From: an uncultured Dehalococcoidales bacterium
GTDB taxonomy: Bacteria > Chloroflexota > Dehalococcoidia > Dehalococcoidales > UBA5760
Assembly: GCA_964644205.1 (NCBI GenBank)
Contig: CAZXVG010000001.1
Span: 1 to 24,579 of the forward strand
Direction: 5' to 3'
DNA: 24,579 nucleotides
Shown here: positions 7,038 to 21,700 of the stretch, piece by piece
Layout of the letters: every line of letters starts with the position of its first letter
How positions within the stretch are numbered: position 1 is the stretch's first letter
Position numbers and translations under genes: made by a program
Notes under the pieces: generated by a model
The model's input: only the letters and a program-made list of their open reading frames with translations
Told to the model about the DNA's origin: nothing
Databases searched by the model: none

Positions 7038-7070
7038 CTGGCGGCGTTCTGTCGAAGGGCTTTAGTTAAA

Positions 7071-7135: not shown

Positions 7136-7221
7136 AACTGATGACCGGTAGCGTTTGAGCATCCGGTCAGCCGGCCTCTCTAAAGAGGCCGGGCAATATT
7201 TAAATGTCTAAGGAGGACAAC

Positions 7222-7587: not shown

Positions 7588-7591
7588 ACGA

Positions 7592-8167: not shown

Positions 8168-8469
8168 TAAAGCAGGAAAGAATCGTGGTGGAGGTGCCGC
8201 TTAGGAGCCGGGCCGTAACTGTGGTTACGGTAAGCGAGGTTACGGGCGACTATCACTTCGGTGATGACGACGTAAGCTTCTACTGTTTTAAGCGGCCGGT
8301 GGCGGTAGCCGTGGCTACCAGGGAGGGAGTCAGAGCCTTCGATAACGATGGTGAGGAGATGGAGACTGCCGAGTTCATCGGCAGGTTCCCGGATGCCAAA
8401 CCCCTGCTCGAGAAGAGACTGAAATCAAGGCGGAAACCTCAGAAGGACGCCAAGGGAGGAAAGGAGTGA
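8164..8469 (+). CDS. hypothetical protein, probable divergent GerW-like paralog
   Basis: 4-bp ATGA overlap with the upstream stop; KRPVAVAVATREGVRA resembles GerW IRAVALVIIDKEGTRV by eye. Confidence 0.7.
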   Translation: MIKQERIVVEVPLRSRAVTVVTVSEVTGDYHFGDDDVSFYCFKRPVAVAVATREGVRAFDNDGEEMETAEFIGRFPDAKPLLEKRLKSRRKPQKDAKGGKE

Positions 8470-8548
8470 CCCTGGCTGGCTCTCCCGCCCTTTCATTATA
8501 GGGGTGGGATTCCGGTCAGGGTTAATAGCCTGGCCAAACCCAACCAAG

Positions 8549-8590
8549 AACAAGGCGAGTAGTGCTCCACGCTAACTCGCCTTGTTTTGT
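8549..8590. terminator. probable bidirectional intrinsic terminator
   Basis: Perfect 12-bp stem AACAAGGCGAGT (8549-8560) / ACTCGCCTTGTT (8575-8586), 14-nt loop, followed by TTGT; lies between convergent genes. Confidence 0.7.
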
Positions 8591-8622
8591 AACCTTACGC
8601 TTATCCGGTGGCTTGAGTTTAG

Positions 8623-9063
8623 CTATTCCCCTAAAAGGAGCTTCAGTTCCGTGATATGCTCCTGCTCGTCCTGGATTACGTGCCGCACGGTGTGTTCCAG
8701 CTGGAAGTATTCGTACTTGAGCTCGTCACGCATCTCCCGGATCTTGTCCAGTATCCCCAGATAAAAGTCAACGGCGTGCTTTTCGTCGTTAAGATTGACC
8801 TTGAGGATGTTGTTCGTTTCCTTGGCCGGATGGGTTTCCGCGATGCCCATCGACGGTACGCCGCCGAGGTAGGCGCCGATTAGTTCGCGGAACATGTCCT
8901 CGTGGCCTTTCTCGTCGTCGGCAAGCTCCTTCAGCCGGGCGATTATCGGCTCGGCGTTTATCCCGCTGACGCACTCGGCATGAGAGAGGTACTGTATCCG
9001 CGCCGCGTGCTCTAGCTCGAGGGCCTGGTTCATCATCCGAAGTAGTTCATCCTTTTTCGCCAT
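8623..9063 (-). CDS. ferritin-like / bacterioferritin-like diiron protein
   Basis: Four-helix ferroxidase pattern: ALELEHAARIQY, DEKGH, DEKHAVDFY, DEQEH; AAGGAGG RBS. Confidence 0.85.
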   Translation of the reverse strand: MAKKDELLRMMNQALELEHAARIQYLSHAECVSGINAEPIIARLKELADDEKGHEDMFRELIGAYLGGVPSMGIAETHPAKETNNILKVNLNDEKHAVDFYLGILDKIREMRDELKYEYFQLEHTVRHVIQDEQEHITELKLLLGE

Positions 9064-9096
9064 TATATGGTCACCTCCTTTATTTCTGGCACCCCC

Positions 9097-9161
9097 ATTT
9101 TAGGTAAGCGGCTATTGAAAAGTAATAAAATTAGTGGCCAGGAAGTTACAAAAAGATAACA
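9097..9161 (-). promoter_or_regulatory. 65-bp shared promoter module, copy 4 (ferritin-like gene)
   Basis: Minus strand reads TGTTATCTTTTTGTAACTTCCTGGCCACTAATTTTATTACTTTTCAATAGCCGCTTACCTAAAAT; -10 TAAAAT. Confidence 0.78.
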
Positions 9162-9218
9162 TTTCGCTGAAGTTTACCGGGAAGGCCGATTTTCTGTTCC
9201 TGAATGGGCCCGGTTATC

Positions 9219-10133
9219 TCATTTACCCTCCCTCAAATCCCTCAGCCTTTGCTGGGCCCTTTCCAGGGAAGTGGCGCCGCGCCACATACCCTGCCAGGGG
9301 TCTTTTTTCTGAGAGAGGCGGCGGAATATGTTCTTAATGTTGTAGCTCCGGGAGTTAAAATTCGGGGCGGTTACCCCCTCCCAGTCCACGGGGGCCGCTA
9401 CCGGCGCCCCGGGCCTGGCTCTTACCGCGTAGGGCAGTACCGCAGTCTGCCCGTAGCTGTTGCGGAGATAGTCCAGAAAGACCCGCCCCCGCCTTTTGTC
9501 CTTACGCTGTTCGCTGGTTAGCGCCTCGGGTTCCTGCTCCGCTAGTGTCCTGGCTACCTCCTGAGCGAAGCCGTGCACCTCGTCGAAGCCGGCGCTCCCG
9601 TTCAGGGGGACGACCACGTGAAGGCCGCGCGAGCCGGTGGTCTTTACCCGGGGCGCAAGCCCCAGCCCTTCCAGGAGCTTTCTTAGGGAAAGCACCGCCC
9701 ACCGGACGGGCTCAAAGTCATCGTCCGGGGGGTCGAGGTCGAAGACGGCTAGGTCGGGTTGGTCCAGGTGGCCCTTGCGGCTCAGCCAGGCGTGGGGGGT
9801 TATGCAGGCCTGGTTAGCCAGGTAGACCAGGGTGGCCGCATTCTGGCAGGCCACATGGCTAGTGCTGCCGCCCTCCTTTTTCACGGTGATGCGCTCTATC
9901 CAGTCCGGGAAATACTCGGGCGCCTCCTGCTGGTAGAACCCGTTCCCGTTTATGCCGTCAGGGAAGCGGTGCAGGGTGAGGGGTCTATCCTTGACGTAGG
10001 GGAGCATTACCCGGGCAATCCGGCGATAGTAGTCTATCAAATCGCCCTTGGTGAGGCCGCTTTCCGGATAAAAGAGCTTGTCCGTGTTGGATAGCTCTAT
10101 GGTGTGGTGACCGATAGCGAGCTTGTTAGCCAT
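9219..10133 (-). CDS. stand-alone LigD polymerase (primase-polymerase) domain protein
   Basis: LSNTDKLFYP, LTLHRFPDGI, DLAVFDLDP, KTTGSRGLHV, FLDYLRN. Start set at ATG 10133 (MANKL), an 8-bp overlap with the upstream stop. Confidence 0.92.
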   Translation of the reverse strand: MANKLAIGHHTIELSNTDKLFYPESGLTKGDLIDYYRRIARVMLPYVKDRPLTLHRFPDGINGNGFYQQEAPEYFPDWIERITVKKEGGSTSHVACQNAATLVYLANQACITPHAWLSRKGHLDQPDLAVFDLDPPDDDFEPVRWAVLSLRKLLEGLGLAPRVKTTGSRGLHVVVPLNGSAGFDEVHGFAQEVARTLAEQEPEALTSEQRKDKRRGRVFLDYLRNSYGQTAVLPYAVRARPGAPVAAPVDWEGVTAPNFNSRSYNIKNIFRRLSQKKDPWQGMWRGATSLERAQQRLRDLREGK

Positions 10134-10716
10134 GCCCTGACTCCAGCTGCTCAAGGGTTCTTCCGCTGAGGACAGACTTTGGCTCCGTTTTCACCGGGTT
10201 CCGTCTATCGTCCGCCTTTTCATCACGCATCTTGACCAGCAGCCACTTCTTCCTGTCCCCCAGCGCCGTCAGGGCATAGCCGCCCTCCAGCTTCTTCCCC
10301 TTGAGCCAGACGGCGATATGCCCCTTTTTCAGGGCTTCTGCCATCGGGGTTTCCCGGCCCTTTTCTTCTGTCAGGTTGTGGTAGGTGCCGCTGTCCCAGA
10401 CTATCACCTTACCGGCGCCGTACTCCCCTTCCGGTATCATCCCCTCGAAGCCGGCATACTCCAGGGGGTGGTCTTCGGTGCGCATGGCCAGGCGCTTCTC
10501 AGCCGGGTCTGTCGAGGGGCCTTTAGGCACCGCCCAGGAAACGAGTACCCCGCCGATTTCCAGACGGAAATCGTAGTGGAGGCTTGAGGCGTCGTGCTTC
10601 TGGACAACGTATCTCGGCAATTTGGCCGGTTCCGCGCCCTCTTCCCCGGAAGGCTCTGAGGTGCGCCCGAAGTCTCGTTTCCGCCGGTACTCTCTCAAAG
10701 ACCCTTCTTTACTCAT
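10126..10716 (-). CDS. stand-alone LigD 3'-phosphoesterase domain protein
   Basis: LREYRRKRDFGRTSEP, YVVQKHDASSLHYDFRLE, SWAVPKGPS, RTEDHPLEY, YGAGKVIVWDSGTY. Confidence 0.93.
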   Translation of the reverse strand: MSKEGSLREYRRKRDFGRTSEPSGEEGAEPAKLPRYVVQKHDASSLHYDFRLEIGGVLVSWAVPKGPSTDPAEKRLAMRTEDHPLEYAGFEGMIPEGEYGAGKVIVWDSGTYHNLTEEKGRETPMAEALKKGHIAVWLKGKKLEGGYALTALGDRKKWLLVKMRDEKADDRRNPVKTEPKSVLSGRTLEQLESGHG

Positions 10717-10726
10717 ATTTCTCTCC

Positions 10727-11479
10727 TTACGGATTACCCGTCTGGCTGCCTCCCAGCATTTCTTTTAGCTTCAGGGCGTTCTCGGCGGCATATCCCTTTT
10801 CATCGTTGTCAAAGTAGCAGTATACCTCTTTCCCTTCGCCGGCCCAGTTGGAAAACGACTCCGCCCAGTCTGTGAGCGCTTCCTGGCCATAGCTTCCGGT
10901 ATAGGCGCCGTCCGGGCCGTGCAGCCTGACATAGACGAAGTCGCTGGTTACCGAACGCGGCGACTGTCTTCCCTCGAAGTCGTATATGCAGAAGGCGGCG
11001 CCCCTTTCGGCCAGGGCGTCTTCGGTCTGCTTACCGAACCAGCTCGGGTTACGGAACTCGAAGGCGTATCTACGACCCTGGGGCAGGGCCCTGAGGAAGC
11101 CCTCCAGCCTCTCGATGTTTGGTTTCCAGTGCGGCGGCAGCTGAAACAGGATTGGCCCCAGTTTATCCCCCAGCGTGGCTACCCGCTCCCCGAGGTTGGC
11201 CAGCGGCTCTGCCGGGTCCTTGAGCTTTTTCATATGGGTCATATAGCGGCTGGCCTTGACGGAGAACCGGAAGCCCTCCGGCACCGAGTCCCGCCACCTG
11301 GCGAAGGTCTCCTTCTCCGGCAGCCGATAGAAGGTGTTGTTGATTTCCGCGGTCTGGAAGTGCTGCGCATAGTATTCCAGCATGCGGCTGTCGGGCAGTT
11401 CTCGGGGGTAGAAGGGGCCCTTCCAGTGCTGGTAGTGCCACCCGGACGTCCCGATGTGTATCGATTTCGGTTCTCTCAA
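10727..11479 (-). CDS. DUF72 (YecE/YunF-like) TIM-barrel protein
   Basis: IHIGTSGWHY, EINNTFY, FSVKASRYMTH, LFQLPP, AFEFRNPSW, YVRLHG, YCYFDND; TTG start. Confidence 0.92.
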   Translation of the reverse strand: MREPKSIHIGTSGWHYQHWKGPFYPRELPDSRMLEYYAQHFQTAEINNTFYRLPEKETFARWRDSVPEGFRFSVKASRYMTHMKKLKDPAEPLANLGERVATLGDKLGPILFQLPPHWKPNIERLEGFLRALPQGRRYAFEFRNPSWFGKQTEDALAERGAAFCIYDFEGRQSPRSVTSDFVYVRLHGPDGAYTGSYGQEALTDWAESFSNWAGEGKEVYCYFDNDEKGYAAENALKLKEMLGGSQTGNP

Positions 11480-11543
11480 TCTGCTCTCTCTTGCTTCTAT
11501 AATGGGACACGCCTTTAGGCTGAGCCATTGGCCGCGCAGCTAA

Positions 11544-11608
11544 ATTCAACATCCTTTCCCGTGTAAAAATCATAAAATCGGGCCCTTGAATCTGACATTT
11601 GTGTAACA
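11544..11608 (-). promoter_or_regulatory. 65-bp shared promoter module, copy 5 (DUF72-LigD operon)
   Basis: Minus strand reads TGTTACACAAATGTCAGATTCAAGGGCCCGATTTTATGATTTTTACACGGGAAAGGATGTTGAAT; half-sites conserved, -10 weaker (TTGAAT). Confidence 0.62.
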
Positions 11609-11637
11609 TTTTACACCTACGTTTCCCGCATCCAAAA

Positions 11638-11702
11638 TGTCATGGTTTTGTAAGTTTTTGCCCCGCGGTTTTATGACTTTTTGATGCCGTCGGGTGTAGA
11701 TT
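11638..11702 (+). promoter_or_regulatory. 65-bp shared promoter module, copy 6 (Lrp-domain/HesB-like/usp operon)
   Basis: TGTCATGGTTTTGTAAGTTTTTGCCCCGCGGTTTTATGACTTTTTGATGCCGTCGGGTGTAGATT; -10 TAGATT. Confidence 0.78.
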
Positions 11703-11742
11703 ACCTATCGGCTTGCGGGAATCTTGGAGAAGGAGGTGGCAC

Positions 11743-12030
11743 ATGCTGTCCAAGGCTTTTGTCCTCATTGAGACGGAGAGGGGTAAGGCTAGAGAGATTA
11801 ACCGGTTGCTGCGCAGGTTCAAGGAGATAATGTCAACCGACCTGGTGACGAACCCCTATGATATAATAGCGCTTGTCGAGGGAAGGACGGAGAAACAGCT
11901 TGAGGACTTTGTCAGTCAGGAACTGCGCTCGATTGACGGTATTACCCGGATGGTATTTTGCGAGGTAGTGCCGGCGGTGAGTCAAACGATGAGCCAAAGA
12001 GGGGTATCTAGGAGCCCGCTTTTGCTCTGA
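11743..12030 (+). CDS. Lrp/AsnC ligand-binding (RAM) domain-only protein
   Basis: KAFVLIETERG...LVTNPYDIIALVE...IDGITR; no HTH. Start moved to ATG 11743 with AGGAGG RBS. Confidence 0.85.
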   Translation: MLSKAFVLIETERGKAREINRLLRRFKEIMSTDLVTNPYDIIALVEGRTEKQLEDFVSQELRSIDGITRMVFCEVVPAVSQTMSQRGVSRSPLLL

Positions 12031-12083
12031 AGATACCATCGACCCGCGAAGTTCGTAGGGAATAAAGCCGGGAGGTCTGGCCA

Positions 12084-12371
12084 ATGATTAACTTGAGTGA
12101 CGATGTAAGATGGCTTCTAAAGGACGGGCGTGGGGAGTACTGCGCTAGCGAAGAAATATGTTTCCGGCTCATGCCGCCCACAGGCGGAAGGGTTACCCTT
12201 ATGCTGGACGTGCCGGAGGACGATGATGTCGTCGTGGAAGACGGCGGTGTTATCTTGCTTCTCGTGGGGCGTGGCGTCGCCTCAACCCTGGAGGGGACGA
12301 CCCTGGGTATCCAAGAGACCGAAGCTGGGCCGAGGCTGGTTATAAATCAGCCGTCGGCGGTGCTGGTGTAG
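12084..12371 (+). CDS. HesB/IscA-like fold hypothetical protein
   Basis: Pattern CFRL...LMLDVPEDDDVVVEDGGVILLLVG...LEGTTLG...GPRLVI resembles HesB-like small proteins; GGAGG upstream; lacks the canonical C-terminal CGC. Confidence 0.55.
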   Translation: MINLSDDVRWLLKDGRGEYCASEEICFRLMPPTGGRVTLMLDVPEDDDVVVEDGGVILLLVGRGVASTLEGTTLGIQETEAGPRLVINQPSAVLV

Positions 12372-12374
12372 CTA

Positions 12375-12818
12375 ATGTTTAAAAAGATTCTGGCGTGCCT
12401 GGATGGTTCCAAACTGGCGGAGCAAATCTTGCCTTATGCTGGAGAGCAGGCCTTACGCTTTGAAAGCCAGCTCGTCCTCCTGCATGTACTAGCCCCGACG
12501 GATTTGCCCCCCGCTGCGGGGATAGGGGTCGGAGAGCTCATGAGAAAACAGGCTCAGGCGGAAGCAAAGTTCAAGACTTACCTTGAGCAACTGGCGGAGA
12601 GATTGCTCCGGGAGTATGATTTGCGGGTGGAGAGCGCCGTCGAAAGGGGAACTGTGGGGGAGACTGTTATCAATTACGCCACCCGGAATAGCGTTGAACT
12701 CATTGTGATTGCCACTCACGGCGAGGGCGGGCTGAAAAGGTTATTATTCGGAAGCGTCGTCGATTCTGTGCTGCGAAACTCTGATATACCCGTGCTGGTG
12801 ATTAGACCCGCTGCTTAG
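12375..12818 (+). CDS. universal stress protein (UspA family)
   Basis: MFKKILACLDGS, LIVIATHGEGG...GSVVDSVLRNS. Confidence 0.92.
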   Translation: MFKKILACLDGSKLAEQILPYAGEQALRFESQLVLLHVLAPTDLPPAAGIGVGELMRKQAQAEAKFKTYLEQLAERLLREYDLRVESAVERGTVGETVINYATRNSVELIVIATHGEGGLKRLLFGSVVDSVLRNSDIPVLVIRPAA

Positions 12819-12972: not shown

Positions 12973-15900
12973 TCACTCCCCGAGGTCGAATTGCAGCGTC
13001 TCCCCCGGCGCTAGCTCAAAGGTATCGTCTCCGAAGCCGACGGTTATCGGGGCCAGGGCATAACGCCGTGTGCTTACCGTGAGACGATTCTGGGTGATGA
13101 GCAGGTTTATCCAGTGCTTACGGTAGAGAATGTCAAACCGTAGCTCCTTTAAGTCGCTGGGCAGGGATGGGTTAAGCTGCAGCCGGTCCTGGCGGGCTTC
13201 GATTCCGGCATAACAGCGCTGAACCAGGTCAACGGTGCCCGCCATGGCCCCGAGGTGAATCCCTTCGGGGGTGGTGCCTCCCTGGGTGTCGGAGACGTCG
13301 CTCTCCAGGGCTTCCTGGAACAGGTGCCAGGAAAGCTCGCGCTCCGAGCGGGCCAATACCCAGGCGTGAACCACCCGGCTTAGGGTAGACCCGTGAGAGG
13401 TGCGTTTCAGGTAGTATTCGATGTTCCGGGGGATGGTCTCGTGTTCGAAAGGGTAGTCGAGACGCCGGAATATCTCCCCCAGCTCGTCGGCGGAGAGGAG
13501 ATAGAAGAGCATGAGCACATCGGCCTGTTTGGAGAGTTTATAGCGGTTGGGGGTGTCCCCCTCCGCTTCGAGGATGCGGTCCAGCCGCTGGACGTCCCCG
13601 TACTTTTTCTGGTAGCCCTCCCAGTTAAACTCTGCAAGCTGCTCATAGCCCTCGAACTGGCTGATGATTCCGTCGCCGTGAAAGACGACCCGCATCTTGC
13701 GGCTGATGTCTTCCCAGTGCTCCACCTCATCCCGCCTCAGAGCGAGCTTGTCCCACAGCGCCTCGCGGCGGTCGCCGGGAAGAAGCTCGATTGTCTCCAG
13801 GGCGCGGCACAACACCCAGACGGCCATGATATTGGTGTAGGCGTTGTTATTGATTCCCGGCTCGGCGGAATCGGGATAGGCGTCGTGAAACTCGTCGGGG
13901 CCCATGACGTTATGAATCTCGTAGCGGCCCAGGGAGCGGTTGTAGCGGGCGATACTTGCCCAGAAACGGGCAATCTCGATGAGCATCTCCGCTCCGTAGA
14001 AGGAGAGGAAGTTGATGTCGCCGGTAACCTGGTAGTAGAGCCACACATTGTAGGCGATGGCCAGGTTGATATGGCGCTGCAACTGGGAGTTATCCGCTAT
14101 CCAGCGCCCGGAGCACGGGTTCAGGTGCAGCTTCTGGCTCTCCTCGCGGCCGTTGCTGCCGCTCTGCCAGGGATACATGGCTCCCTGGTAGCCGGCTTGC
14201 CTGGCTGCCCACTGGGCCTCGGGAAGCCGGCGGTAGCGGTACATCAGCAGGGCGCGGGTAATATCTGGAATCCTGAAATTGAGGAAGGGGAAGATAAATA
14301 GCTCGTCCCAGAGGACATGCCCCCGGTAGGCTTCCCCGTGCAGACCCCGGGGCGGGACGCCGGCGTCCACCTCGATGGTGTGCGGTGACACGGTCTGCAG
14401 CAGGTGGAAGATGTGCAGATTGAGGATAAGCGCCACGCGTTCGCTGTCCTTGATGGCGATGTGACTGCGCCGCCACAGGAGGTCCCAGCTCAGGACGTGC
14501 TGCTTGAGCAAATCGTCAAAGCCCGGGGCGTGCCTAAGCTGCTGACACGACTCGATGACGCTTTCCGAGATGGCATGGTCTCGGGAGGTATAGAGGGCGA
14601 TAATCTTCTCGATGGTGGCCTCTTTCCCCTCCTTAAGCTCAAGGGAAAACTCCTGGGCAATGTAGCCCGGTTCTGCTATTACCCGGGGCTTTAGGGAGAG
14701 CCGCTCACCGCCGCAGAACAGCCTGGTTCGTGCCGCCTCGGCGATAAGGATATGCGACTGGTTCGTCTCCATGTGGAGGTAGACCGTTTCCTGGTCAACC
14801 GATTTGGTGCTCACGGGACTAAGGTGGCGGTTTTCTAGCTGCCGGTAGCGCGCCACCCCGCTGTTGGTCACCCGTCCGTCAAGGGCCGAGCTGACGGAGA
14901 TGCGTCCCCCCCAGTTCTCGGGGACGATGGTTGTTTCCAGTCCGGCCAGGTGGGGACTGGCCATGCTGACAAAGCGGCGCTGGAATATCCGTGTTCGGCG
15001 CCCCTTCTCGTCGGCAAAGCGAATCAGTCGGCTGAGTACGCCCTGGCGTATGTTTAGCTCCTGACGGTATTCCAGGAGGTTTGCCTGCTCGACGCTAAAC
15101 CAGTCCCCGTCCTGGAAGCGGAGGTTAACGGGTAGCCAGTTGGGCAGGTTCACCAGGCTCTCGTTCTCGATGGTCTGTCCCTTGACCTCGGTCTTAAGGC
15201 GGTTGTAACAGCCGGCGGCGTAGCTCCCCGGATAGTGGACGCCGTCGGCGCTGGCTTCCGGGGCGGCGCCCCGGGTGGCAAAATAGCCGTTTCCCAGCGT
15301 GCACAGCGCCTCCCGCAGCCCTTCCTCTTCGGGGGCAAAGTTATCATAGGCTATCACCCAGGTGCCCCGGGCGGTCTCCTTTTCGGCCCTCGCCAGAAGC
15401 TCCTCCAGGAACGCCCTGACCTCTTCCGGGCTGCGTAGCGCATAGTGAGCGCTTGTCTTACGATTGCCCCCGCCGACCACGATAGAGATGCCCCGGTCAC
15501 CAATGGCGCCAAAGGCGTCTTCGTCAGTAGTGTCGTCGCCGATGTATACCGGCAGGACCCGTCTCCCGTCGGCGTGTAGCGCCTCGATAAGGTGCATTAG
15601 GGCCTTGCCCTTGTCCCAGTCGATATCCGGTCTCAGTTCCAAGACCTTCTTACCGGCGGACTTCCGTAGTTCCGGGTAGTGTCGGGCTACCTCGTCGAAC
15701 TGCTGCCGCAGCACGTCCAGGTCGGCGGTCTTAACCTGACGGTAGTGGACGGCGATGGCAAAGCGCTTGCGCTCCACCCAGGCTCTGGCTACCTTTAGCC
15801 TCTCGCGTAGCTCCGCCTCCGCCTTGTCCAGCGTGGCCAGGAAGGGTTTACCCACCTCCTGGTCCCGGTACCGTCCCTCCGGGCCGGCGATGTCGAAGCC

Positions 15901-16941
15901 GTGACTGCCGGCGTAGGCAATGTCGCTGATGCCGACCATGTTCTGCACGTCACCGAGGTCGCGGCCGCTGACGATGGCTACCGAGTAATGGTCAGCTAGC
16001 CTTCTGATTACCCGCCTGGTTTCCTCGGGGAGGATGGCCTGGGCGGGCCGGGCGACAATCGGCGTCAGCGTGCCGTCGTAATCGAGAAAGATGACCGGCG
16101 TGTGCTCCCGCAGCCGCTTTAGTATCGCCTCCTTTTTCTCCAGGGCGGAATCAAGGCTCCTTATCGCCCTTGGCCTGTCGGATTTACGGGGCCCGGCCTT
16201 TCCCGTTGCCAGCTCGGATAAATCCCGCACCACGATATCGGCGCCCCGTTTCTTCATCTCTCTAGCCTGACACGTCCGGTCCACCCCGATAACCAGCCCA
16301 AACCCGCCGCGGCGGCCGGCCTCGACGCCGGCCAGCGAGTCCTCCACGATGGCCGTCTTATCGGGGCTCGCGCCGAGGCGCCGGCAGGCTTCGAGGAAGA
16401 TGGCCGGGTCGGGTTTACCCTTCAGCTTGAGCCTGGCGGAATCGACACCGTCCACCTTGACTTCGAAGAGCTCACTGGCCCCGGCTGCCGCGAGCACGGC
16501 CTCGGCGTTACGGCTGGCCGAGATGATTGCGGTATGGATGCCCCTCTTTTTCAGGTTTTTGACTAGTCTGACAGAGGACGGGTAGGCCCGTCCCCCCTCC
16601 TTCTGGAGCCGTTCCAGGAAGTACCGGTTCTTCCGGTTGCCGAGCCCGCAGACGGTATCCCGGTCCGGGCCGTCACCCGGCTTTCCGCGGGGTAGCGAGA
16701 TACCCCGTGAGTCTAAGAAGCCCTTCACCCCGTCGTAGCGCGGCTTACCGTCTACGTAGCGGCGGTAGTCGGTCTCGGCGTCGAATGGCTGAAAGCCCCG
16801 CTCGCCGCCCTGTGCGGCGCGCCGCTTGAGGTAGTCGTCGAACATCTGCTTCCAGGCGGCGGCGTGGATACCGGCGGTGTCGGTTATCACCCCGTCCATA
16901 TCGAAGATTACCGCCTCTATATTCTTAAGGCTAAACCCCAT
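12973..16941 (-). CDS. three-domain fusion: beta-phosphoglucomutase-like HAD + trehalose-6-phosphate phosphatase + GH65 phosphorylase (OtsB1/Rv2006-like architecture)
   Basis: IFDMDGVITDTA, GKPDPAIF, VEDSLAGV (beta-PGM-like); FLDYDGTLTPI, VSGR, KGKA, GDDTTDEDAF (T6PP); LCTLGNGYFATRG, GEAYRGHVLWD, GPDEFH, KQADV, GIHLGAMAG (GH65). Confidence 0.92.
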   Translation of the reverse strand: MGFSLKNIEAVIFDMDGVITDTAGIHAAAWKQMFDDYLKRRAAQGGERGFQPFDAETDYRRYVDGKPRYDGVKGFLDSRGISLPRGKPGDGPDRDTVCGLGNRKNRYFLERLQKEGGRAYPSSVRLVKNLKKRGIHTAIISASRNAEAVLAAAGASELFEVKVDGVDSARLKLKGKPDPAIFLEACRRLGASPDKTAIVEDSLAGVEAGRRGGFGLVIGVDRTCQAREMKKRGADIVVRDLSELATGKAGPRKSDRPRAIRSLDSALEKKEAILKRLREHTPVIFLDYDGTLTPIVARPAQAILPEETRRVIRRLADHYSVAIVSGRDLGDVQNMVGISDIAYAGSHGFDIAGPEGRYRDQEVGKPFLATLDKAEAELRERLKVARAWVERKRFAIAVHYRQVKTADLDVLRQQFDEVARHYPELRKSAGKKVLELRPDIDWDKGKALMHLIEALHADGRRVLPVYIGDDTTDEDAFGAIGDRGISIVVGGGNRKTSAHYALRSPEEVRAFLEELLARAEKETARGTWVIAYDNFAPEEEGLREALCTLGNGYFATRGAAPEASADGVHYPGSYAAGCYNRLKTEVKGQTIENESLVNLPNWLPVNLRFQDGDWFSVEQANLLEYRQELNIRQGVLSRLIRFADEKGRRTRIFQRRFVSMASPHLAGLETTIVPENWGGRISVSSALDGRVTNSGVARYRQLENRHLSPVSTKSVDQETVYLHMETNQSHILIAEAARTRLFCGGERLSLKPRVIAEPGYIAQEFSLELKEGKEATIEKIIALYTSRDHAISESVIESCQQLRHAPGFDDLLKQHVLSWDLLWRRSHIAIKDSERVALILNLHIFHLLQTVSPHTIEVDAGVPPRGLHGEAYRGHVLWDELFIFPFLNFRIPDITRALLMYRYRRLPEAQWAARQAGYQGAMYPWQSGSNGREESQKLHLNPCSGRWIADNSQLQRHINLAIAYNVWLYYQVTGDINFLSFYGAEMLIEIARFWASIARYNRSLGRYEIHNVMGPDEFHDAYPDSAEPGINNNAYTNIMAVWVLCRALETIELLPGDRREALWDKLALRRDEVEHWEDISRKMRVVFHGDGIISQFEGYEQLAEFNWEGYQKKYGDVQRLDRILEAEGDTPNRYKLSKQADVLMLFYLLSADELGEIFRRLDYPFEHETIPRNIEYYLKRTSHGSTLSRVVHAWVLARSERELSWHLFQEALESDVSDTQGGTTPEGIHLGAMAGTVDLVQRCYAGIEARQDRLQLNPSLPSDLKELRFDILYRKHWINLLITQNRLTVSTRRYALAPITVGFGDDTFELAPGETLQFDLGE

Positions 16942-16987
16942 GCCGCCTTTCTCCCGTTACCCGGATAGGCCCCATCCAGTTAGGTCT

Positions 16988-16996
16988 AGTCTACCA
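16988..16996 (-). promoter_or_regulatory. extended -10 (TGGTAGACT) upstream of the trehalose fusion gene
   Basis: TGn-TAGACT about 47 bp upstream of the ATG; no recognisable -35 and no copy of the shared module. Confidence 0.4.
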
Positions 16997-17235
16997 CATT
17001 TTGGGGCTTGCTTTTAGCCAAAGAGGCGGTGTCAGTCACGCTGGTACCGAGAAGCCTGGCTAACGCTTCCCGGGTATTGAAGGCGTCGTGGGTGGTGACG
17101 ATGGCTCTTGCCTGGTGAACCGGCGTATGCCCGGCGAACAGGGTCTCTAGACTCCGTCCCCTGGTAATAGCTCCGCCTCATCTCCGGTTCCCGGCCCTTC
17201 CGGGGGCCCATCGAGCCCGGCGGCTTACCCTGCCG

Positions 17236-18804: not shown

Positions 18805-20094
18805 ATGAAAGCAGAGAAACAACCGGGTGGCGGCCAGGCTGTCCCCGGGGACAGGATAGGCAGCCTGGTAAAAGAGGCCGTCTTCGGTGCCGATGACCGG
18901 GCGAAAGAAGAGCACCGGCGGCTGATTCGCGAGATGGCTTTCGATTGGGGGGCCTATCCGGCCAGCATTCAGGGCTTATACCAGGCGGCGGGCAAGGGGC
19001 TCTATCACGGCATCACCGTCCCGGCGATTAATATCCGCGGGCTTACCTATCAGGTAGCCAGAGCCGTTTTCCGGGCGGCGCGAAAACACAAGACCGGCGC
19101 CTTTATCTTTGAGATTGCGCGCTCCGAGATAGGCTATACCAAACAGAGGCCGATGGAGTATACCGCCTGCCTGCTGGCGGCGGCGGTCAGGGAGGGGTTC
19201 CGGGGGCCTGTTTTTATTCAGGGAGACCACTTTCAGTTCAATCGGGGTAAATACCGCTCGGAACCGGAAAGCGAAATAAATGCCATCAAGCAGTTGATAG
19301 AGGAGGCGGTAAACGCCGGGTTTCTGAATATCGATATCGACGCCTCCACCCTGGTCGATTTGGAGAAGCCGAGCCTTGAGGAGCAGCAGCGGGACAACTG
19401 CCTGGTCACCGCGGATATGACCCGGTTTATCCGCGGCATTGAGCCGGAGGGAGTGACCATCTCGGTCGGCGGCGAAATCGGGGAGGTGGGCAAGAGAAAC
19501 AGCACCGTGGAAGACCTCAGGGTCTTTATGACCGGGTATCTCGCCGAGCTGGGCTCGGGTATAGCGGGCATATCCAAAATCAGCGTGCAGACCGGGACGA
19601 CGCACGGCGGGGTGGTCTTACCCGACGGGTCGATTGCTAAGGTCAAGCTCGATTTTGAGACGCTTGGGAGGCTGTCTCAGGCGGCCCGTGAGGAGTACGG
19701 CCTGAGCGGCGCGGTACAGCACGGGGCGTCTACCCTCTCCGACGATGCCTTTGATATGTTCCCCAAGGTGGGGGCGGCGGAGGTTCACCTGGCCACCGGG
19801 TTTCAGAATGCCATCTACGACAGCCCCTATTTCCCCGGGGATTTGCTGCAGAGGATAAACCGGCACCTTCTGGAGAACTACCAGGGTGAGCGAAAGCCGG
19901 AGGATACCGAGGACCAGTTCCTGTATAAGACGCGGAAGAAGGCATGGGGTGATTTCAAGAAGGAGATATGGAGCATCCCGGAAGAGAGCCTCAGGGAGAT
20001 AGGGGAGACGCTTGAGGAGCGCTTTTCCCTACTCTTTCGCAAGCTGAACGTGGTGGAAACCGTCGACCTGGTCGGTCGGTTCGTTGCCAGGTGA
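18805..20094 (+). CDS. fba: class II fructose-bisphosphate aldolase (long form)
   Basis: TVPAINIRG, IQGDHFQ, IDIDAS, EIGEVG, TGTTHGG, VQHGAS; three metal-ligand His present. Confidence 0.85.
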   Translation: MKAEKQPGGGQAVPGDRIGSLVKEAVFGADDRAKEEHRRLIREMAFDWGAYPASIQGLYQAAGKGLYHGITVPAINIRGLTYQVARAVFRAARKHKTGAFIFEIARSEIGYTKQRPMEYTACLLAAAVREGFRGPVFIQGDHFQFNRGKYRSEPESEINAIKQLIEEAVNAGFLNIDIDASTLVDLEKPSLEEQQRDNCLVTADMTRFIRGIEPEGVTISVGGEIGEVGKRNSTVEDLRVFMTGYLAELGSGIAGISKISVQTGTTHGGVVLPDGSIAKVKLDFETLGRLSQAAREEYGLSGAVQHGASTLSDDAFDMFPKVGAAEVHLATGFQNAIYDSPYFPGDLLQRINRHLLENYQGERKPEDTEDQFLYKTRKKAWGDFKKEIWSIPEESLREIGETLEERFSLLFRKLNVVETVDLVGRFVAR

Positions 20095-20121
20095 CCCCGT
20101 ATCGGGACAGGCCTCGGGTGC

Positions 20122-21117
20122 CTAGCCGAATAGACTCAGTTTATCCAGCCGCTCGAAGTTGTGGATGGCGTCAATCCAGCGGACGGTGCCGGAGCGGGAG
20201 CGCATGGCGATGGACTGGGTCTGGGCCCCCCTGCTGAAGTAGCGTACCCCCTTGAGCAGTTCGCCGCTGCTGACGCCGGTAGCGGCGAAGAATACCTCGT
20301 CGCCCTTTATCAGGTCCTCGGTGCGGTAGACCTTGTCCAGGTCGATGCCGGCCGCCTCCGCTGCTTGGGTCTCCTGCTCGTTACGCGGCCACGCCTTACA
20401 CTGAATAATGCCCCCGATGCAGTGGATGGCCGCGGCGGTAAGCACCCCCTCGGGGGTGCCCCCGATACCCATGAGCACGTCGGTGCCGGTTTCGGGGAGC
20501 GCCGCCTGCAGGCCGGCGACGATGTCTCCGTCGGGGATTAGCTTGACCCGGGCCCCGGCCTCCCGGATTTCCCTAAGTAGCTGCTCGTGGCGCGGCCTGT
20601 CCAGGACCACCACGGTTAAATCCGCTACCTTTCGCCTCTTGGCCCGGGCGATGTTTGCTAGGTTATCGGCCACGGGAGCAGTGATGTCGATGACGTCTTT
20701 GGCCTCGTGTCCGGTCACTATCTTGTCCATGTAGACGCAGTGTCGGGGACACTCCATGGTGCCTCTGCCGGCCAGGGCCACCACCGAGATGGCCCCGGGG
20801 AGACCCTTGGCGACCAGCGAGGTGCCGTCGATAGGGTCGACGGCGACGTCGACCTGCGGCTCGCTGCCGTCGCCGATGCGTTCCCCGATATAGAGCATGG
20901 GGGCCTCGTCCTTCTCTCCCTCCCCGATGACTACTACCCCGTCCATGCGGACACAGTTCAAGACGGAACGCATGGCGTCTACCGCCGCCTGGTCGACCAT
21001 CTCTTTGTCACCCATCCCCATGTGACGGGCCGCCGTCATGGCGGCGGCCTCGGTGACCCGCACCAGCTCCATGGCGATGTTTCTCTCAATAGGCTGACAG
21101 GATGGCATTGCTTTCAT
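20122..21117 (-). CDS. glpX: class II fructose-1,6-bisphosphatase
   Basis: ELVRVTEAAA, VIGEGEKDEAPMLY, VDPIDGT, MDKI, LDRPRH, GIGGTPEGV, FAATGVSSG. The start may instead be ATG 21108. Confidence 0.95.
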   Translation of the reverse strand: MKAMPSCQPIERNIAMELVRVTEAAAMTAARHMGMGDKEMVDQAAVDAMRSVLNCVRMDGVVVIGEGEKDEAPMLYIGERIGDGSEPQVDVAVDPIDGTSLVAKGLPGAISVVALAGRGTMECPRHCVYMDKIVTGHEAKDVIDITAPVADNLANIARAKRRKVADLTVVVLDRPRHEQLLREIREAGARVKLIPDGDIVAGLQAALPETGTDVLMGIGGTPEGVLTAAAIHCIGGIIQCKAWPRNEQETQAAEAAGIDLDKVYRTEDLIKGDEVFFAATGVSSGELLKGVRYFSRGAQTQSIAMRSRSGTVRWIDAIHNFERLDKLSLFG

Positions 21118-21195: not shown

Positions 21196-21687
21196 TTATC
21201 CGTCTTTGTCTCTTCCCGGGCTGTGCGGCATTACTGCCTTGGGGAGGCTGCGGCGCCGGGTAAGTCCTCTATCCTGTTTGCCCTTTTTCGGGGAGTGGGC
21301 CTTCGGGGGTCTGGCGGCGGTAAGCTTATCAATGGTGCTCAGCAGCTCTTCCGAGTTAAAGGGCTTGGTTATGTAGCCGTCAGCCCCCATCATTTCACCG
21401 AGCTTCACGTTGAGCGGCTGGTTTATGGCGGTAAGCATGACTACGGGAATGGCTCTGGTTTCCGGGTCTTTCTTGATGGCGTAGCAGCTGTGGTAGCCGT
21501 CCATTCTGGGCATCATGATGTCCATCAGGATGAGGTCCGGCCTCTGGCTGGTGGCCATTAGTACCGCCTCCTCGCCGTCGCTGGCCTCGATTACCACGTA
21601 GTGCTTACCGAGCAGCCTGCGGAGCAGCTTTATCACGGTCGGTTCGTCGTCAACGATGAGTACCTTTTTCTTGGCTGTCTTGCTCAT
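21196..21687 (-). CDS. single-domain response regulator with basic low-complexity C-terminal tail
   Basis: VLIVDDE, LILMDIMMP, MLTA, YITKPF, then about 40 Lys/Arg/Pro-rich residues. Confidence 0.88.
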   Translation of the reverse strand: MSKTAKKKVLIVDDEPTVIKLLRRLLGKHYVVIEASDGEEAVLMATSQRPDLILMDIMMPRMDGYHSCYAIKKDPETRAIPVVMLTAINQPLNVKLGEMMGADGYITKPFNSEELLSTIDKLTAARPPKAHSPKKGKQDRGLTRRRSLPKAVMPHSPGRDKDG

Positions 21688-21700
21688 TTGCGGGCGACCT

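What the first reader, a model, noticed from the sequence alone, without database searches (positions are those of the whole stretch)
12973..16941. Three-domain fusion could make trehalose from glucose-6-phosphate without OtsA or nucleotide sugars
Seen: intact-looking DxD motifs in both HAD domains (DMDGV, DYDGT) and the GH65 acid motif GPDEFH; no otsA in the window. Established chemistry: beta-PGM interconverts Glc6P and beta-Glc1P, GH65 trehalose-6-P phosphorylase reversibly joins beta-Glc1P and Glc6P, and T6P phosphatase releases trehalose. The same architecture occurs in M. tuberculosis Rv2006 (OtsB1), whose role is unresolved. Inference: a single-polypeptide, NTP-sparing trehalose synthase suited to an energy-limited anaerobe, or the reverse mobilisation route.
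Basis: partly seen in the sequence, partly recalled or inferred. Interest (0 to 1): 0.68.

Follow-up and report, generated by a model that had tools for sequence, protein, structure and literature searches.

The report
Fused three-enzyme trehalose-making module
One 1322-residue protein of a salt-marsh Dehalococcoidia bacterium joins three intact sugar-phosphate enzymes that together could turn glucose-6-phosphate into the stress sugar trehalose without nucleotide sugars, and the same trio recurs fused or side by side across many bacterial and archaeal phyla, but its activity and direction are still untested.

Summary
Window 12973-16941 (-) is one intact 1322-aa ORF with three domains: a beta-phosphoglucomutase-like HAD, a trehalose-6-P phosphatase (TPP), and a GH65 phosphorylase. 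There is no otsA, treS or glgE in the window.

All catalytic residues of the three domains are present. They are essentially invariant in 116 homologs of 59-76% identity. The GH65 domain carries the phosphate-binding site of phosphorylases. It matches 5 of 6 published specificity residues of trehalose-6-P phosphorylase (SQGQDE vs DQGQDE); control enzymes gave their own motifs.

The trio is a conserved module. In 86 loci from more than 10 phyla, including Archaea, it is fused in about 36 and split into adjacent genes in the same order in about 29.

Neighbours point to trehalose and alpha-glucan synthesis, gluconeogenesis and stress. Uptake or catabolic genes were never found nearby.

It is not shown. 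Genome-wide absence of otsA could not be tested, and OtsA sits next to the module in 5 of 87 loci.

The family is the uncharacterised OtsB1 type. Many mycobacterial members have a decayed first domain; this one does not.

The parts
12973..16941 (-). Single ORF of 1322 aa encoding the three-domain protein (beta-PGM-like HAD, T6P phosphatase, GH65 phosphorylase)
   Evidence: 116 full-length homologs at 59-76% identity, named Chloroflexota/Dehalococcoidia where a name is given.
16942..17235 (-). 294-nt upstream intergenic region with the RBS GGGAGAAAGG. The gene probably has its own promoter.
   Evidence: No sigma-70 consensus match and no terminator in the flanks. Neighbours differ between relatives, which fits a monocistronic gene.
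16207..16920 (-). Domain 1, aa 8-245: HAD-IA beta-phosphoglucomutase-like domain with a long cap insertion
   Evidence: Best solved match is 8h5s 'Beta-phosphoglucomutase', E 1.7e-64. I take 8h5s to be the validated M. tuberculosis beta-PGM Rv3400, from my recollection of that sequence. Passes TIGR02009 PGMB-YQAB (158.9 vs cutoff 153.35). Does not reach the TIGR01990 bPGM equivalog cutoff (105.5 vs 189.4).
16888..16902 (-). DMDGV, aa 14-18: D14 nucleophile and D16 acid/base of the mutase domain
   Evidence: Aligned to D8/D10 of L. lactis beta-PGM. D14 is kept in 115/116 and D16 in 116/116 homologs. Coordinates checked.
16093..16206 (-). Linker, aa 246-283, poorly conserved
   Evidence: 39% mean identity, against 59-81% in the domains.
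15397..16092 (-). Domain 2, aa 284-515: HAD-IIB trehalose-6-phosphate phosphatase
   Evidence: TIGR00685 T6PP equivalog 179.4 vs cutoff 68. M. tuberculosis OtsB2 (5gvx) E 1.2e-51, with all four HAD motifs aligned. E. coli OtsB tblastn hit at 15397-16089.
16069..16083 (-). DYDGT, aa 287-291: D287 nucleophile and D289 of the phosphatase
   Evidence: D287, D289, T291, S325, R327, H347 and K444 are 116/116; D469 is 115/116 and D470 is 114/116.
14572..15360 (-). GH65 N-terminal beta-sandwich domain, aa 528-790. It includes the N-loop with E594-S595 (specificity position 64 in CsKP numbering).
13231..14418 (-). GH65 (alpha/alpha)6 catalytic domain, aa 842-1237. Phosphate site: R873, S1185-T1186, H1229. 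Specificity residues: Q926, G928, Q936, D950, E1127.
13885..13902 (-). GPDEFH, aa 1014-1019: E1017 is the general acid
   Evidence: Aligned to the GPDEFH/GPDEYH motif of CsKP and 9lb6. 116/116 conserved.
14092..14166 (-). aa 926-950, QSGSNGREESQKLHLNPCSGRWIAD: the stretch holding four of the six specificity-determining positions (Q926, G928, Q936, D950)
   Evidence: Positions defined by De Beul 2021, PMC8537180. Mapped, with CsKP and E. coli YcjT as controls.
13015..13200 (-). GH65 C-terminal beta-sheet domain, aa 1248-1309
12375..12818 (+). Context only: universal stress protein gene, convergent, 154 nt from the 3' end of the fusion gene
   Evidence: Pfam Usp 7.5e-31. Usp genes lie within 10 kb of the module in 21 of 87 loci, 18 of them Actinomycetota. 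A functional link is not shown.
18805..21117 (.). Context only: class II aldolase-like ORF (18805-20094, +) and GlpX fructose-1,6-bisphosphatase (20122-21117, -), which are gluconeogenic steps towards Glc6P
   Evidence: FBP aldolases of other classes lie next to the module in L007 and L009, a GAPDH gene lies near it at the P0035 locus, and PEP synthase/PPDK lies within 10 kb in 16 loci. A functional link is inferred, not shown.

Best explanation
The protein is a cytoplasmic three-step trehalose synthase module.

(1) The N-terminal HAD domain acts as a beta-phosphoglucomutase and interconverts Glc6P and beta-Glc1P. D14 is the nucleophile and D16 the acid/base. R68, S143, R144 and N145 hold the distal phosphate.

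[quoted passage not shown] E1017 is the general acid. R873, S1185, T1186 and H1229 form the phosphate site.

(3) The central HAD-IIB domain hydrolyses trehalose-6-P irreversibly to trehalose + Pi, with D287 as nucleophile.

Net reaction: 2 Glc6P + H2O -> trehalose + 2 Pi, with no NDP-glucose.

Steps 1 and 2 together lie close to equilibrium, so the T6P level follows roughly [Glc6P]^2/[Pi], and step 3 pulls the flux. The module would therefore work as an overflow from the hexose-phosphate pool into trehalose when Glc6P rises, for example under gluconeogenic, growth-arrested, osmotic or desiccation stress in a salt marsh.

Shown: domain identities, intact and conserved catalytic residues, the specificity signature, conservation of the module, and its gene neighbourhoods. 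Inferred: every activity, the direction of flux, and the physiological trigger.
For: All three domains are intact.

Domain 1 matches 8h5s 'Beta-phosphoglucomutase' at E 1.7e-64. I take 8h5s to be Rv3400 from my recollection of that sequence. Rv3400 is reported to be a beta-PGM in vitro, and its deletion raises beta-Glc1P 30-fold. Domain 1 keeps the mutase-specific distal phosphate site.

Domain 2 matches M. tuberculosis OtsB2 at E 1.2e-51, with all four HAD motifs.

The GH65 domain keeps the Lys/Arg-His-Ser-Ser phosphate site that defines GH65 phosphorylases. It has SQGQDE at the six specificity positions. DQGQDE is the motif of the characterised Caldithrix T6P phosphorylase and of 9lb6. Control kojibiose phosphorylases give EEAPWE and -EAPAS.

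Catalytic residues of all three domains are invariant or nearly so in 116 homologs, while the linker drifts.

The trio is fused in about 36 loci and split but adjacent, in the same order, in about 29 of 86 loci from more than 10 phyla including Archaea. TPP-GH65 and bPGM-TPP two-domain forms also exist.

Neighbourhoods fit synthesis. L005 has GlgB-GH57-GlgE-TreS/Mak-[module], tightly spaced on one strand. L021 has TreS/Mak-GH13-GH13-[module]-[TPS-TPP]. L040 has [module]-OtsA-glucokinase. L009 has PpsA-PfkB-aldolase-[module]. PEP synthase/PPDK lies within 10 kb in 16 loci from at least six phylum- or class-level groups. MscS channels are present in 5 loci. Probes for PTS TreB, trehalase TreA and TreR found nothing in the 87 loci.

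Thermodynamics: trehalose phosphorolysis is unfavourable, with at most 26% yield, so synthesis from beta-Glc1P is favoured (GH65 review). From textbook values as I recall them, 2 Glc6P -> T6P + Pi is near equilibrium and T6P hydrolysis is strongly exergonic.

The same enzyme pair, T6PP plus beta-PGM, is already used in vitro to make T6P.

The source is salt-marsh sediment, where an osmoprotectant makes sense.
Against: No activity has been measured for any member of this family, and OtsB1 remains biochemically uncharacterised.

Characterised T6P phosphorylase/beta-PGM pairs are catabolic (L. lactis). Reviews list GH65 enzymes as mainly degradative and TrePP only as a T6P degradation route. Rv3400 itself serves trehalose catabolism.

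bPGM-GH65 fusions without TPP are more numerous than three-domain forms: 41 vs 6 of the 150 best 50%-identity clusters.

OtsA or TPS-TPP lies beside the module in 5 of 87 loci, so the module does not always replace OtsA.

Overall identity of the GH65 domain to 9lb6 (33.6%) is no higher than to kojibiose phosphorylase (34.4%). The specificity call rests on signature residues, and position 64 is S rather than D.

Domain 1 misses the strict beta-PGM equivalog cutoff.

Whether this genome lacks otsA could not be tested.
Confidence: 0.55

Rival explanations
1. T6P homeostasis or salvage hub. T6P is made elsewhere by OtsA. The protein then offers two exits: dephosphorylation to trehalose (TPP), or phosphorolysis plus mutase back to 2 Glc6P (GH65 + bPGM). 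This keeps the toxic T6P low and sets the split according to Pi and Glc6P. Net flux through the GH65 domain is degradative.
For: Known TrePP/PgmB pairs are catabolic, and GH65 enzymes are mostly degradative in vivo. Rv3400 works in trehalose catabolism. OtsA or TPS-TPP genes lie next to the module in L021, L022, L024, L040 and L066. The bPGM+T6PP pair is near equilibrium, so at low Glc6P and high Pi it would consume T6P (inference from textbook thermodynamics).
Against: Fusing two enzymes that compete for one substrate is unusual. Consecutive steps are the commoner reason for a fusion. In L021, L022 and L024 the neighbouring OtsA already carries its own TPP domain, so the module's TPP is not needed as its partner. 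82 of 87 loci have no OtsA within 10 kb. The contexts with gluconeogenic genes, glucokinase and TreS/Mak/GlgE fit supply of trehalose better than clearance of T6P.
Confidence: 0.25
2. The GH65 domain has a different acceptor specificity: another phosphorylated or neutral alpha-glucoside. The protein then makes or degrades something other than trehalose-6-P.
For: Overall identity to 9lb6 and to kojibiose phosphorylase is the same, about 34%. Signature position 64 is S, not D. A subclade with a different motif (RAPD..) nests within the same broad clade in a rough NJ tree. 9lb6 is deposited under the name 'hydrolase', and its biochemistry could not be found.
Against: 5 of 6 signature residues, plus the R/S-T variant of the phosphate site, match 9lb6 and the published T6PP motif and no other characterised motif. 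32 of 86 related modules carry the exact DQGQDE motif. The fused partner is a bona fide TPP by equivalog score and shows about 46% identity to E. coli-type and OtsB2-type enzymes. The module sits next to trehalose genes (TreS/Mak, TPS-TPP).
Confidence: 0.1
3. Only the TPP domain matters, as the current 'trehalose-phosphatase' annotation implies. One or both of the other domains are inactive or regulatory, as may be the case in mycobacterial OtsB1.
For: NCBI names the family 'trehalose-phosphatase'. Many Mycobacterium and Gordonia homologs have a degenerate or truncated first domain. M. tuberculosis OtsB2 keeps a remnant of that domain with no known activity.
Against: In this protein and in 116 Dehalococcoidia homologs, every catalytic residue of all three domains is conserved. 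The GH65 catalytic domain is the most conserved part, at 81% mean identity. GH65 catalytic residues are intact in all 86 loci.
Confidence: 0.05

Closest known systems
OtsB1 (Rv2006) of Mycobacterium tuberculosis and its actinobacterial relatives
   Same: Same size class (1327 aa) and the same HAD - TPP - GH65 order. Full-length Nocardia and Mycobacterium homologs are 46-52% identical to the window protein. They lie among stress and dormancy genes: Usp, a GAF sensor kinase, WS/DGAT, nitroreductase and PfkB in the actinobacterial loci, and Usp, Hsp20, a ferritin-like gene and LigD here. Function is unknown in both.
   Different: Many Mycobacterium and Gordonia members have lost the nucleophile and cap of the first HAD domain or are N-terminally truncated, and a few have altered TPP residues (M. 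innocens D->N). The window protein has all three centres intact. Rv2006 itself could not be fetched, so its own residues were not checked.
Lactococcus lactis trehalose-6-phosphate phosphorylase (TrePP) with beta-phosphoglucomutase (PgmB)
   Same: The same two reactions and enzyme families, with beta-Glc1P as the shared intermediate. The T6PP specificity signature is shared.
   Different: There the enzymes are separate and act after PTS uptake of trehalose as T6P, in the catabolic direction. Here they are fused to a T6P phosphatase, which would waste the substrate in catabolism. No PTS or trehalase gene is nearby in any of 87 loci.
OtsA/OtsB (TPS/TPP) trehalose pathway, including bifunctional TPS-TPP proteins
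   Same: The same last step and the same intermediate, T6P. The TPP domain is homologous to OtsB/OtsB2. TPS-TPP is also a fusion of the T6P-forming and T6P-hydrolysing enzymes.
   Different: T6P would be formed by a phosphorylase from beta-Glc1P rather than by a GT20 transferase from UDP- or ADP-glucose. No GT20 gene is in the window.
M. tuberculosis beta-phosphoglucomutase Rv3400, which I take to be PDB 8h5s
   Same: 8h5s is the closest solved relative of domain 1 (E 1.7e-64). Both share the long cap insertion and the DGKxR motif in place of KGxxR. Rv3400 is reported as a beta-PGM in vitro and confirmed by deletion.
   Different: It is a stand-alone 260-aa enzyme acting in trehalose catabolism. 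That 8h5s is Rv3400 rests on my recollection of the sequence, not on a tool result.
In vitro one-pot synthesis of T6P with maltose phosphorylase, T6P phosphorylase and beta-PGM (Taguchi 2020, cited in PMC11442529)
   Same: It shows that T6PP and beta-PGM together can run towards T6P.
   Different: It is an engineered cascade fed with beta-Glc1P from maltose. There beta-PGM runs beta-Glc1P -> Glc6P, and no phosphatase is included.

Membership tests
GH65 trehalose-6-phosphate phosphorylase (EC 2.4.1.216) | GH65 N-terminal, (alpha/alpha)6 catalytic and C-terminal domains | tested here: met
   Pfam PF03636 1.4e-72, PF03632 2.3e-130, PF03633 2.4e-10. 9lb6 E 5e-133 and CsKP E 3.5e-112.
GH65 trehalose-6-phosphate phosphorylase (EC 2.4.1.216) | General acid Glu in the GPDE[FY]H motif | tested here: met
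   E1017 aligns with the motif in CsKP and 9lb6. 116/116 conserved.
GH65 trehalose-6-phosphate phosphorylase (EC 2.4.1.216) | Phosphate-binding site (Lys, His, two Ser) that separates phosphorylases from GH65 hydrolases | tested here: met
   The site is defined in PMC8626586. The query has R873, H1229 and S1185-T1186, identical to 9lb6, while kojibiose phosphorylases have K/S-S. All are 116/116 conserved. Absence of a hydrolase-type general base was judged only from the alignment (Q1220), not from a structure.
GH65 trehalose-6-phosphate phosphorylase (EC 2.4.1.216) | Specificity signature DQGQDE at CsKP positions 64, 392, 394, 402, 416, 585 | tested here: inconclusive
   5 of 6 positions match (SQGQDE; S595 follows an invariant E594). 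Controls behaved as published: CsKP EEAPWE, E. coli YcjT -EAPAS, 9lb6 DQGQDE. Position 64 among 116 close homologs is S in 82, C in 27 and D in 7. 32 of 86 diverse loci have the exact motif.
GH65 trehalose-6-phosphate phosphorylase (EC 2.4.1.216) | Reversible reaction T6P + Pi = beta-Glc1P + Glc6P | not testable with these tools
   Needs an enzyme assay.
beta-phosphoglucomutase (EC 5.4.2.6, HAD-IA) | HAD motifs I-IV with DxD, and the distal phosphate site (R49, S116, K117, N118 of the L. lactis enzyme) | tested here: met
   D14, D16, T22, H26, G65, R68, S141, S143, R144, N145, K176, E200, D201. K45 is replaced by D64, as in 8h5s.
beta-phosphoglucomutase (EC 5.4.2.6, HAD-IA) | Score above the curated equivalog model TIGR01990 | tested here: not met
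   105.5 bits vs cutoff 189.4. The broader TIGR02009 PGMB-YQAB subfamily is passed (158.9 vs 153.35). The closest solved relative, 8h5s, which carries the same cap insertion, is deposited as a beta-phosphoglucomutase, so the miss probably reflects that insertion.
trehalose-6-phosphate phosphatase (OtsB, HAD-IIB) | Curated equivalog score and the four HAD motifs | tested here: met
   TIGR00685 179.4 vs cutoff 68. The motifs FLDYDGTLTP, SGRD, RPdidwdKG and GDDtTDEDaF align with M. tuberculosis OtsB2. They are 114-116/116 conserved.
OtsB1-type three-domain proteins (Rv2006 family) | HAD - TPP - GH65 in one polypeptide of about 1300 aa | tested here: met
OtsB1-type three-domain proteins (Rv2006 family) | Orthology to Rv2006 itself, and the same state of the catalytic residues | not tested
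   The Rv2006 sequence was not among the fetched loci. Other Mycobacterium members differ in domain 1.
OtsA/OtsB pathway | A GT20 trehalose-6-phosphate synthase partner | tested here: not met
   No OtsA hit in the 24.6-kb window. The rest of the genome is not available.

The most novel reading that the evidence does not exclude
The bPGM-TPP-T6PP module is a sixth route to trehalose that needs no nucleotide sugar: 2 Glc6P -> trehalose + 2 Pi. It is spread by fusion, fission and transfer across more than 10 phyla of Bacteria and Archaea. It would also give a function to the long-unexplained OtsB1 of mycobacteria. Where it is clustered with TreS-maltokinase-GlgE (L005, L021, L066), it would feed an alpha-glucan pathway from Glc6P that costs one ATP per two glucose units and bypasses ADP-/UDP-glucose altogether.
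Probability: 0.4. Interest if true: 0.8.

Novelty: new variant of a known kind. Interest (0 to 1): 0.62.

Why it matters
Reviews up to 2025 list five routes to trehalose (OtsAB, TreYZ, TreS, TreT, TreP) and treat T6P phosphorylase only as a degradation enzyme.

If this module runs as proposed, there is a further route that spends no nucleotide triphosphate beyond making the hexose phosphates. Its rate would rise steeply with the Glc6P pool.

It would also give a testable function to OtsB1 (Rv2006). OtsB1 is a DosR-regulon, starvation-specific protein of M. tuberculosis whose role has been open for about twenty years.

It would correct the names 'trehalose-phosphatase' and 'alpha,alpha-trehalase' now attached to many database entries.

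A single polypeptide that makes trehalose from Glc6P would also be a compact part for metabolic engineering.

Tried and rejected
1. Papers. Nine full-text searches looked for a published function of OtsB1/Rv2006, for a GH65 'T6P hydrolase' (9lb6), and for a T6PP-based trehalose synthesis. None was found in the searchable library. The search combining Dehalococcoidia with trehalose returned only plant and insect papers.

2. Genome-wide otsA absence. The window is the whole contig.

3. Expression. No RNA run holds the gene. Only salt-marsh DNA runs do.

4. Promoter and terminator scan of the locus. There were no promoter-like sites, and the two terminator-like hits lie inside the ORF, fewer than the shuffled expectation. 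This was uninformative.

5. Overall sequence identity as a guide to GH65 specificity. The query is 33.6% identical to 9lb6 and 34.4% to CsKP, so identity does not discriminate. I relied on signature residues instead. The NJ tree is rough and has only one T6P-type anchor.

6. 'Reverse mobilisation route'. Rejected as the main role because T6P hydrolysis is irreversible and no trehalose-phosphorylating system or transporter accompanies the module.

7. Split genes as assembly frameshifts. Rejected because the same split point recurs in about 23 loci, including isolate genomes (Kineobactrum, Thioalkalivibrio, Desulfuromonas), and bPGM-TPP proteins of about 530 aa form 15 separate 50% clusters.

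8. Structure prediction was not run. The protein exceeds the 1200-aa limit, the folds are already certain from sequence, and the tool does not report inter-domain confidence.

9. A thermodynamic constant for T6PP was looked for in two reviews and not found. The near-equilibrium argument rests on textbook values recalled by me.

Full report
**Observation.** The window holds one uninterrupted minus-strand ORF at 12973-16941 (1322 aa, ATG start). A GGGAGAAAGG ribosome-binding site lies 5 nt upstream, after a 294-nt intergenic region.

Pfam places a HAD hydrolase domain at aa 8-213, Trehalose_PPase at 285-505, and the three GH65 domains at 532-787, 842-1237 and 1248-1309. E-values range from 1e-10 to 1e-130.

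No OtsA, TreS, maltokinase, GlgE, GH57 or GlgB homolog is detectable in the window by tblastn. None of the plausible ORFs carries a GT20 or GH13 domain. The window is the entire contig, so nothing can be said about the rest of the genome.

**Origin.** Homologs of 59-76% identity over the full length number more than 120 clusters. Where they are named, they are Chloroflexota/Dehalococcoidia, annotated 'trehalose-phosphatase' (NCBI) or 'alpha,alpha-trehalase' (JGI). Near-identical DNA is found only in salt-marsh and marsh metagenomes. No RNA run holds it.

**Domain 1 (aa 8-245).** The best solved match is 8h5s, deposited as 'Beta-phosphoglucomutase' (E 1.7e-64). I take it to be M. tuberculosis Rv3400, from my recollection of that sequence. 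Rv3400 is reported to be a beta-PGM in vitro, and its deletion raises beta-Glc1P 30-fold.

Against the L. lactis enzyme, the nucleophile and acid/base (D8, D10), hinge T16, H20, G46, R49, S114, S116, K117, N118, K145, E169 and D170 correspond to D14, D16, T22, H26, G65, R68, S141, S143, R144, N145, K176, E200 and D201. The R68/S143/R144/N145 group is the distal phosphate site that a mutase needs.

The strict NCBIfam beta-PGM model is not reached (105.5 vs 189.4), but the PGMB-YQAB subfamily model is. The window protein and 8h5s share a long cap insertion, which may explain the shortfall.

**Domain 2 (aa 284-515).** It passes the T6P phosphatase equivalog model (179 vs 68). It aligns with M. 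tuberculosis OtsB2 at E 1.2e-51, with all four HAD motifs conserved.

**Domain 3 (aa 528-1310).** The best solved matches are 9lb6, deposited as 'trehalose-6-phosphate hydrolase' (E 5e-133), and Caldicellulosiruptor kojibiose phosphorylase (E 3.5e-112).

GH65 phosphorylases are set apart from GH65 hydrolases by a phosphate site made of Lys, His and two Ser (PMC8626586). The query has R873, H1229 and S1185-T1186, exactly as 9lb6 does, and the general acid E1017.

De Beul et al. defined six specificity-determining positions. They gave DQGQDE as the motif of the T6P phosphorylase they validated, and EEAPxx for kojibiose, TRIGPP for trehalose and KV[MF]NES for maltose phosphorylases. My mapping returns SQGQDE for the window protein and DQGQDE for 9lb6. 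The controls behaved as published: EEAPWE for CsKP and -EAPAS for E. coli YcjT.

Overall identity does not discriminate (33.6% to 9lb6, 34.4% to CsKP). The T6P assignment therefore rests on 5 of 6 signature residues plus the shared R/S-T variant of the phosphate site. A rough NJ tree puts the query with 9lb6 and apart from the kojibiose phosphorylases.

**Are all three domains under selection?** In 116 full-length homologs, every catalytic or substrate-site residue listed above is kept in at least 111 of 116 sequences, and most are kept in all 116. Mean identity is 67% (bPGM), 63% (TPP) and 81% (GH65 catalytic domain), against 39% in the inter-domain linker. None of the domains looks like a relic in this lineage.

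**The trio is a module.** A profile-free search of 1.84 billion cluster representatives gave 4250 hits at E<=1e-30. Among the best 150, the architectures are 72 GH65 alone, 41 bPGM-GH65, 15 bPGM-TPP (about 530 aa), 6 bPGM-TPP-GH65, 4 TPP-GH65 and 1 GH65-bPGM. Most carry the QGQDE-type signature. Named members include Nocardia transvalensis (three domains) and Mycolicibacterium cosmeticum 'otsB1' (TPP-GH65).

The best 80 loci come from:
- Archaea: Methanomassiliicoccus, Methanobacteriota, Ca. Ethanoperedens, Ca. Argoarchaeum.
- Bacteria: Desulfobacterota, Actinomycetota, Binatia, Bacteroidota, Bacillota, Nitrospirota, Planctomycetota, Cyanobacteria, and Alpha- and Gammaproteobacteria.

I reconstructed ORFs in 86 loci (corrected for identical ORF starts):
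- about 36 fully fused;
- about 23 with a bPGM-TPP gene immediately followed by a GH65 gene;
- about 6 with three separate or otherwise split genes in the same order;
- about 10 with TPP plus GH65 only;
- about 8 with bPGM plus GH65 only.

TPP catalytic residues are complete in 67 of 77 loci, and GH65 residues are complete in all. 32 loci have the exact DQGQDE motif and 28 have SQGQDE.

Repeated fusion and fission of the same three genes, always in the same order, is strong comparative evidence that they act in one pathway. A T6P phosphatase joined to a T6P phosphorylase makes sense only if T6P is the product of the phosphorylase, or if both drain a T6P pool made elsewhere.

**Neighbourhoods.**
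- In the window, the gene lies among two Usp genes, Hsp20, a ferritin-like gene, LigD polymerase and phosphoesterase genes, DUF72, sensor kinases and response regulators, a class II aldolase-like gene and GlpX FBPase.
- In L005 (74% identical protein), it is the last gene of a tightly spaced GlgB - GH57 - GlgE - TreS/maltokinase cluster. TreS and maltokinase pass their curated models.
- In L021 the order is TreS/Mak - GH13 - GH13 - [bPGM-TPP][GH65] - [TPS-TPP].
- In L040 it is [bPGM][TPP][GH65] - OtsA - glucokinase, and the last two overlap.
- In L066, TreS/Mak precedes the module and OtsA follows on the other strand.
- In L009 (Methanomassiliicoccus) the order is PEP synthase - PfkB kinase - DeoC/LacD aldolase - [module].

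Clustering of 1142 neighbour proteins shows these families within 10 kb:

| Neighbour | Loci | Note |
|---|---|---|
| Usp | 21 | mostly Actinomycetota |
| PEP synthase/PPDK | 16 | at least six phylum- or class-level groups |
| DosS-like GAF kinase | 11 | |
| WS/DGAT | 11 | |
| Nitroreductase | 9 | |
| PfkB | 7 | |
| MscS | 5 | |

Probes for PTS TreB, trehalase TreA and TreR found nothing in the 87 loci. The context is therefore trehalose/alpha-glucan synthesis, gluconeogenesis and stress or dormancy, not uptake or catabolism.

**Mechanism proposed.** Glc6P is converted to beta-Glc1P (domain 1). Then beta-Glc1P + Glc6P gives T6P + Pi (GH65). Then T6P is hydrolysed to trehalose + Pi (domain 2). 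The net reaction is 2 Glc6P + H2O -> trehalose + 2 Pi.

The GH65 review notes that phosphorolysis of the alpha,alpha-1,1 bond is thermodynamically unfavourable (maximum 26% yield), so synthesis from beta-Glc1P is favoured. From textbook values as I recall them (Glc6P hydrolysis about -14 kJ/mol, trehalose hydrolysis about -12 kJ/mol), 2 Glc6P -> T6P + Pi is close to equilibrium, and the phosphatase step is strongly exergonic.

It follows, by inference, that T6P would track [Glc6P]^2/[Pi], and that the module would drain a full hexose-phosphate pool into trehalose. At low Glc6P and high Pi, the first two steps would instead run backwards. This is why the T6P-homeostasis rival cannot be dismissed, especially where OtsA is adjacent (5 of 87 loci). 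In three of those five loci, however, the OtsA gene already carries its own TPP domain. There the module is a second, parallel set of enzymes rather than the phosphatase partner of OtsA.

**Comparison with what is known.** The family is the OtsB1 (Rv2006) type. A 2024 review calls its function unknown. [quoted passage not shown] I found no paper proposing a phosphorylase-based synthesis. A 2025 review lists TrePP only as a T6P degradation route.

The window protein differs from many mycobacterial members. L036, L039, L041, L042, L044, L045, L053, L061 and the Gordonia locus L073 have lost key residues of domain 1 or are truncated. L053 (M. innocens) has D->N at the TPP nucleophile. Rv2006 itself was not among the fetched loci and was not checked.

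**Verdict.** The feature is real and well conserved.

Three limits remain: activity and direction are unproven, 'without OtsA' is untested for this genome and not universal, and the link to energy-limited anaerobes is not specific.

I put the biosynthetic reading at about 0.55, the T6P-homeostasis reading at 0.25, another GH65 specificity at 0.10 and a TPP-only role at 0.05. I rate it as a new variant built from known enzyme kinds, of moderate to high interest, because it makes the old OtsB1 question directly testable.

Noticed in passing
window 2527-12818 and 21196-24535: The gene sits in what looks like a stress or dormancy island. It holds two Usp genes (2527-2994, 12375-12818), Hsp20 (3045-3539), a ferritin/Dps-like gene (8623-9063), a YtfJ spore-protein-like gene (7204-7587), LigD polymerase (9219-10154) and LigD phosphoesterase (10126-10716) genes without a ligase domain, DUF72 (10727-11479), a MEDS-PAS histidine kinase (4206-6959) and four response-regulator genes. 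The actinobacterial loci carry the DosR-regulon-like set instead: tandem Usp, GAF kinase, WS/DGAT, nitroreductase and PfkB.
   Followed up: partly
PDB 5gvx (M. tuberculosis OtsB2) vs window protein aa 184-261: The N-terminal region of OtsB2 (chain residues 91-168) aligns with the C-terminal half of the beta-PGM-like domain and the linker (E 5e-10 on its own). The essential OtsB2 therefore looks like a decayed bPGM-TPP two-domain protein.
   Followed up: partly
L036, L039, L041, L042, L044, L045, L053, L061, L073 (Mycobacterium, Gordonia): In these OtsB1 homologs the first HAD domain is degenerate or truncated: the nucleophile Asp is replaced by N/E/G/V and the cap is missing. The GH65 domain is always intact. 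M. innocens (L053) also has D->N at the TPP nucleophile. This could bear on reports that mycobacterial OtsB1 lacks phosphatase activity.
   Followed up: partly
L005 1-13927 (Dehalococcoidia MAG GCA_964396965.1): A one-strand cluster GlgB - GH57 - GlgE - small ORF - TreS/maltokinase fusion - PolX N-terminal fragment (HHH_8, 123 aa) - three-domain gene. This is a complete GlgE alpha-glucan pathway next to the module in a Dehalococcoidia genome.
   Followed up: partly
window 18805-20094 (+): A 429-aa ORF next to GlpX matches class II FBP aldolase only weakly (55 bits; TIGR00167 38 bits vs cutoff 215) and touches GatZ/KbaZ. It is an unusually long and divergent aldolase-like protein.
   Followed up: no
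L009 5238-13936 (Methanomassiliicoccus MAG); also L028 and L084: In L009 the order PEP synthase/PPDK - PfkB sugar kinase - aldolase sits directly upstream of the module. PEP synthase/PPDK and PfkB genes also lie near the module in L028 (Mycobacterium) and L084 (Competibacteraceae). The substrate of the PfkB kinase is unknown.
   Followed up: partly
L008 (E. coli K-12 1979753-1982387): In E. coli, uspC lies convergent to otsBA, just as a Usp gene lies convergent to the three-domain gene in the window, and as Rv2005c (from my recollection of the M. tuberculosis gene order) lies next to Rv2006. This may be coincidence or an old association of Usp with trehalose genes.
   Followed up: no
PDB 9lb6/9lb7: The closest solved GH65 structure is deposited as 'trehalose-6-phosphate hydrolase', yet it has the phosphorylase-type phosphate site (R, S-T, H) and the exact T6P phosphorylase signature DQGQDE. 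No paper on it was found, so the name may be an annotation carry-over.
   Followed up: partly
P0153 (871 aa): A protein made of four tandem beta-PGM-like domains, each about 50% identical to domain 1.
   Followed up: no
window 133-2419: 2-oxoacid:ferredoxin oxidoreductase alpha and beta subunit genes at the contig start, consistent with an anaerobic host.
   Followed up: no
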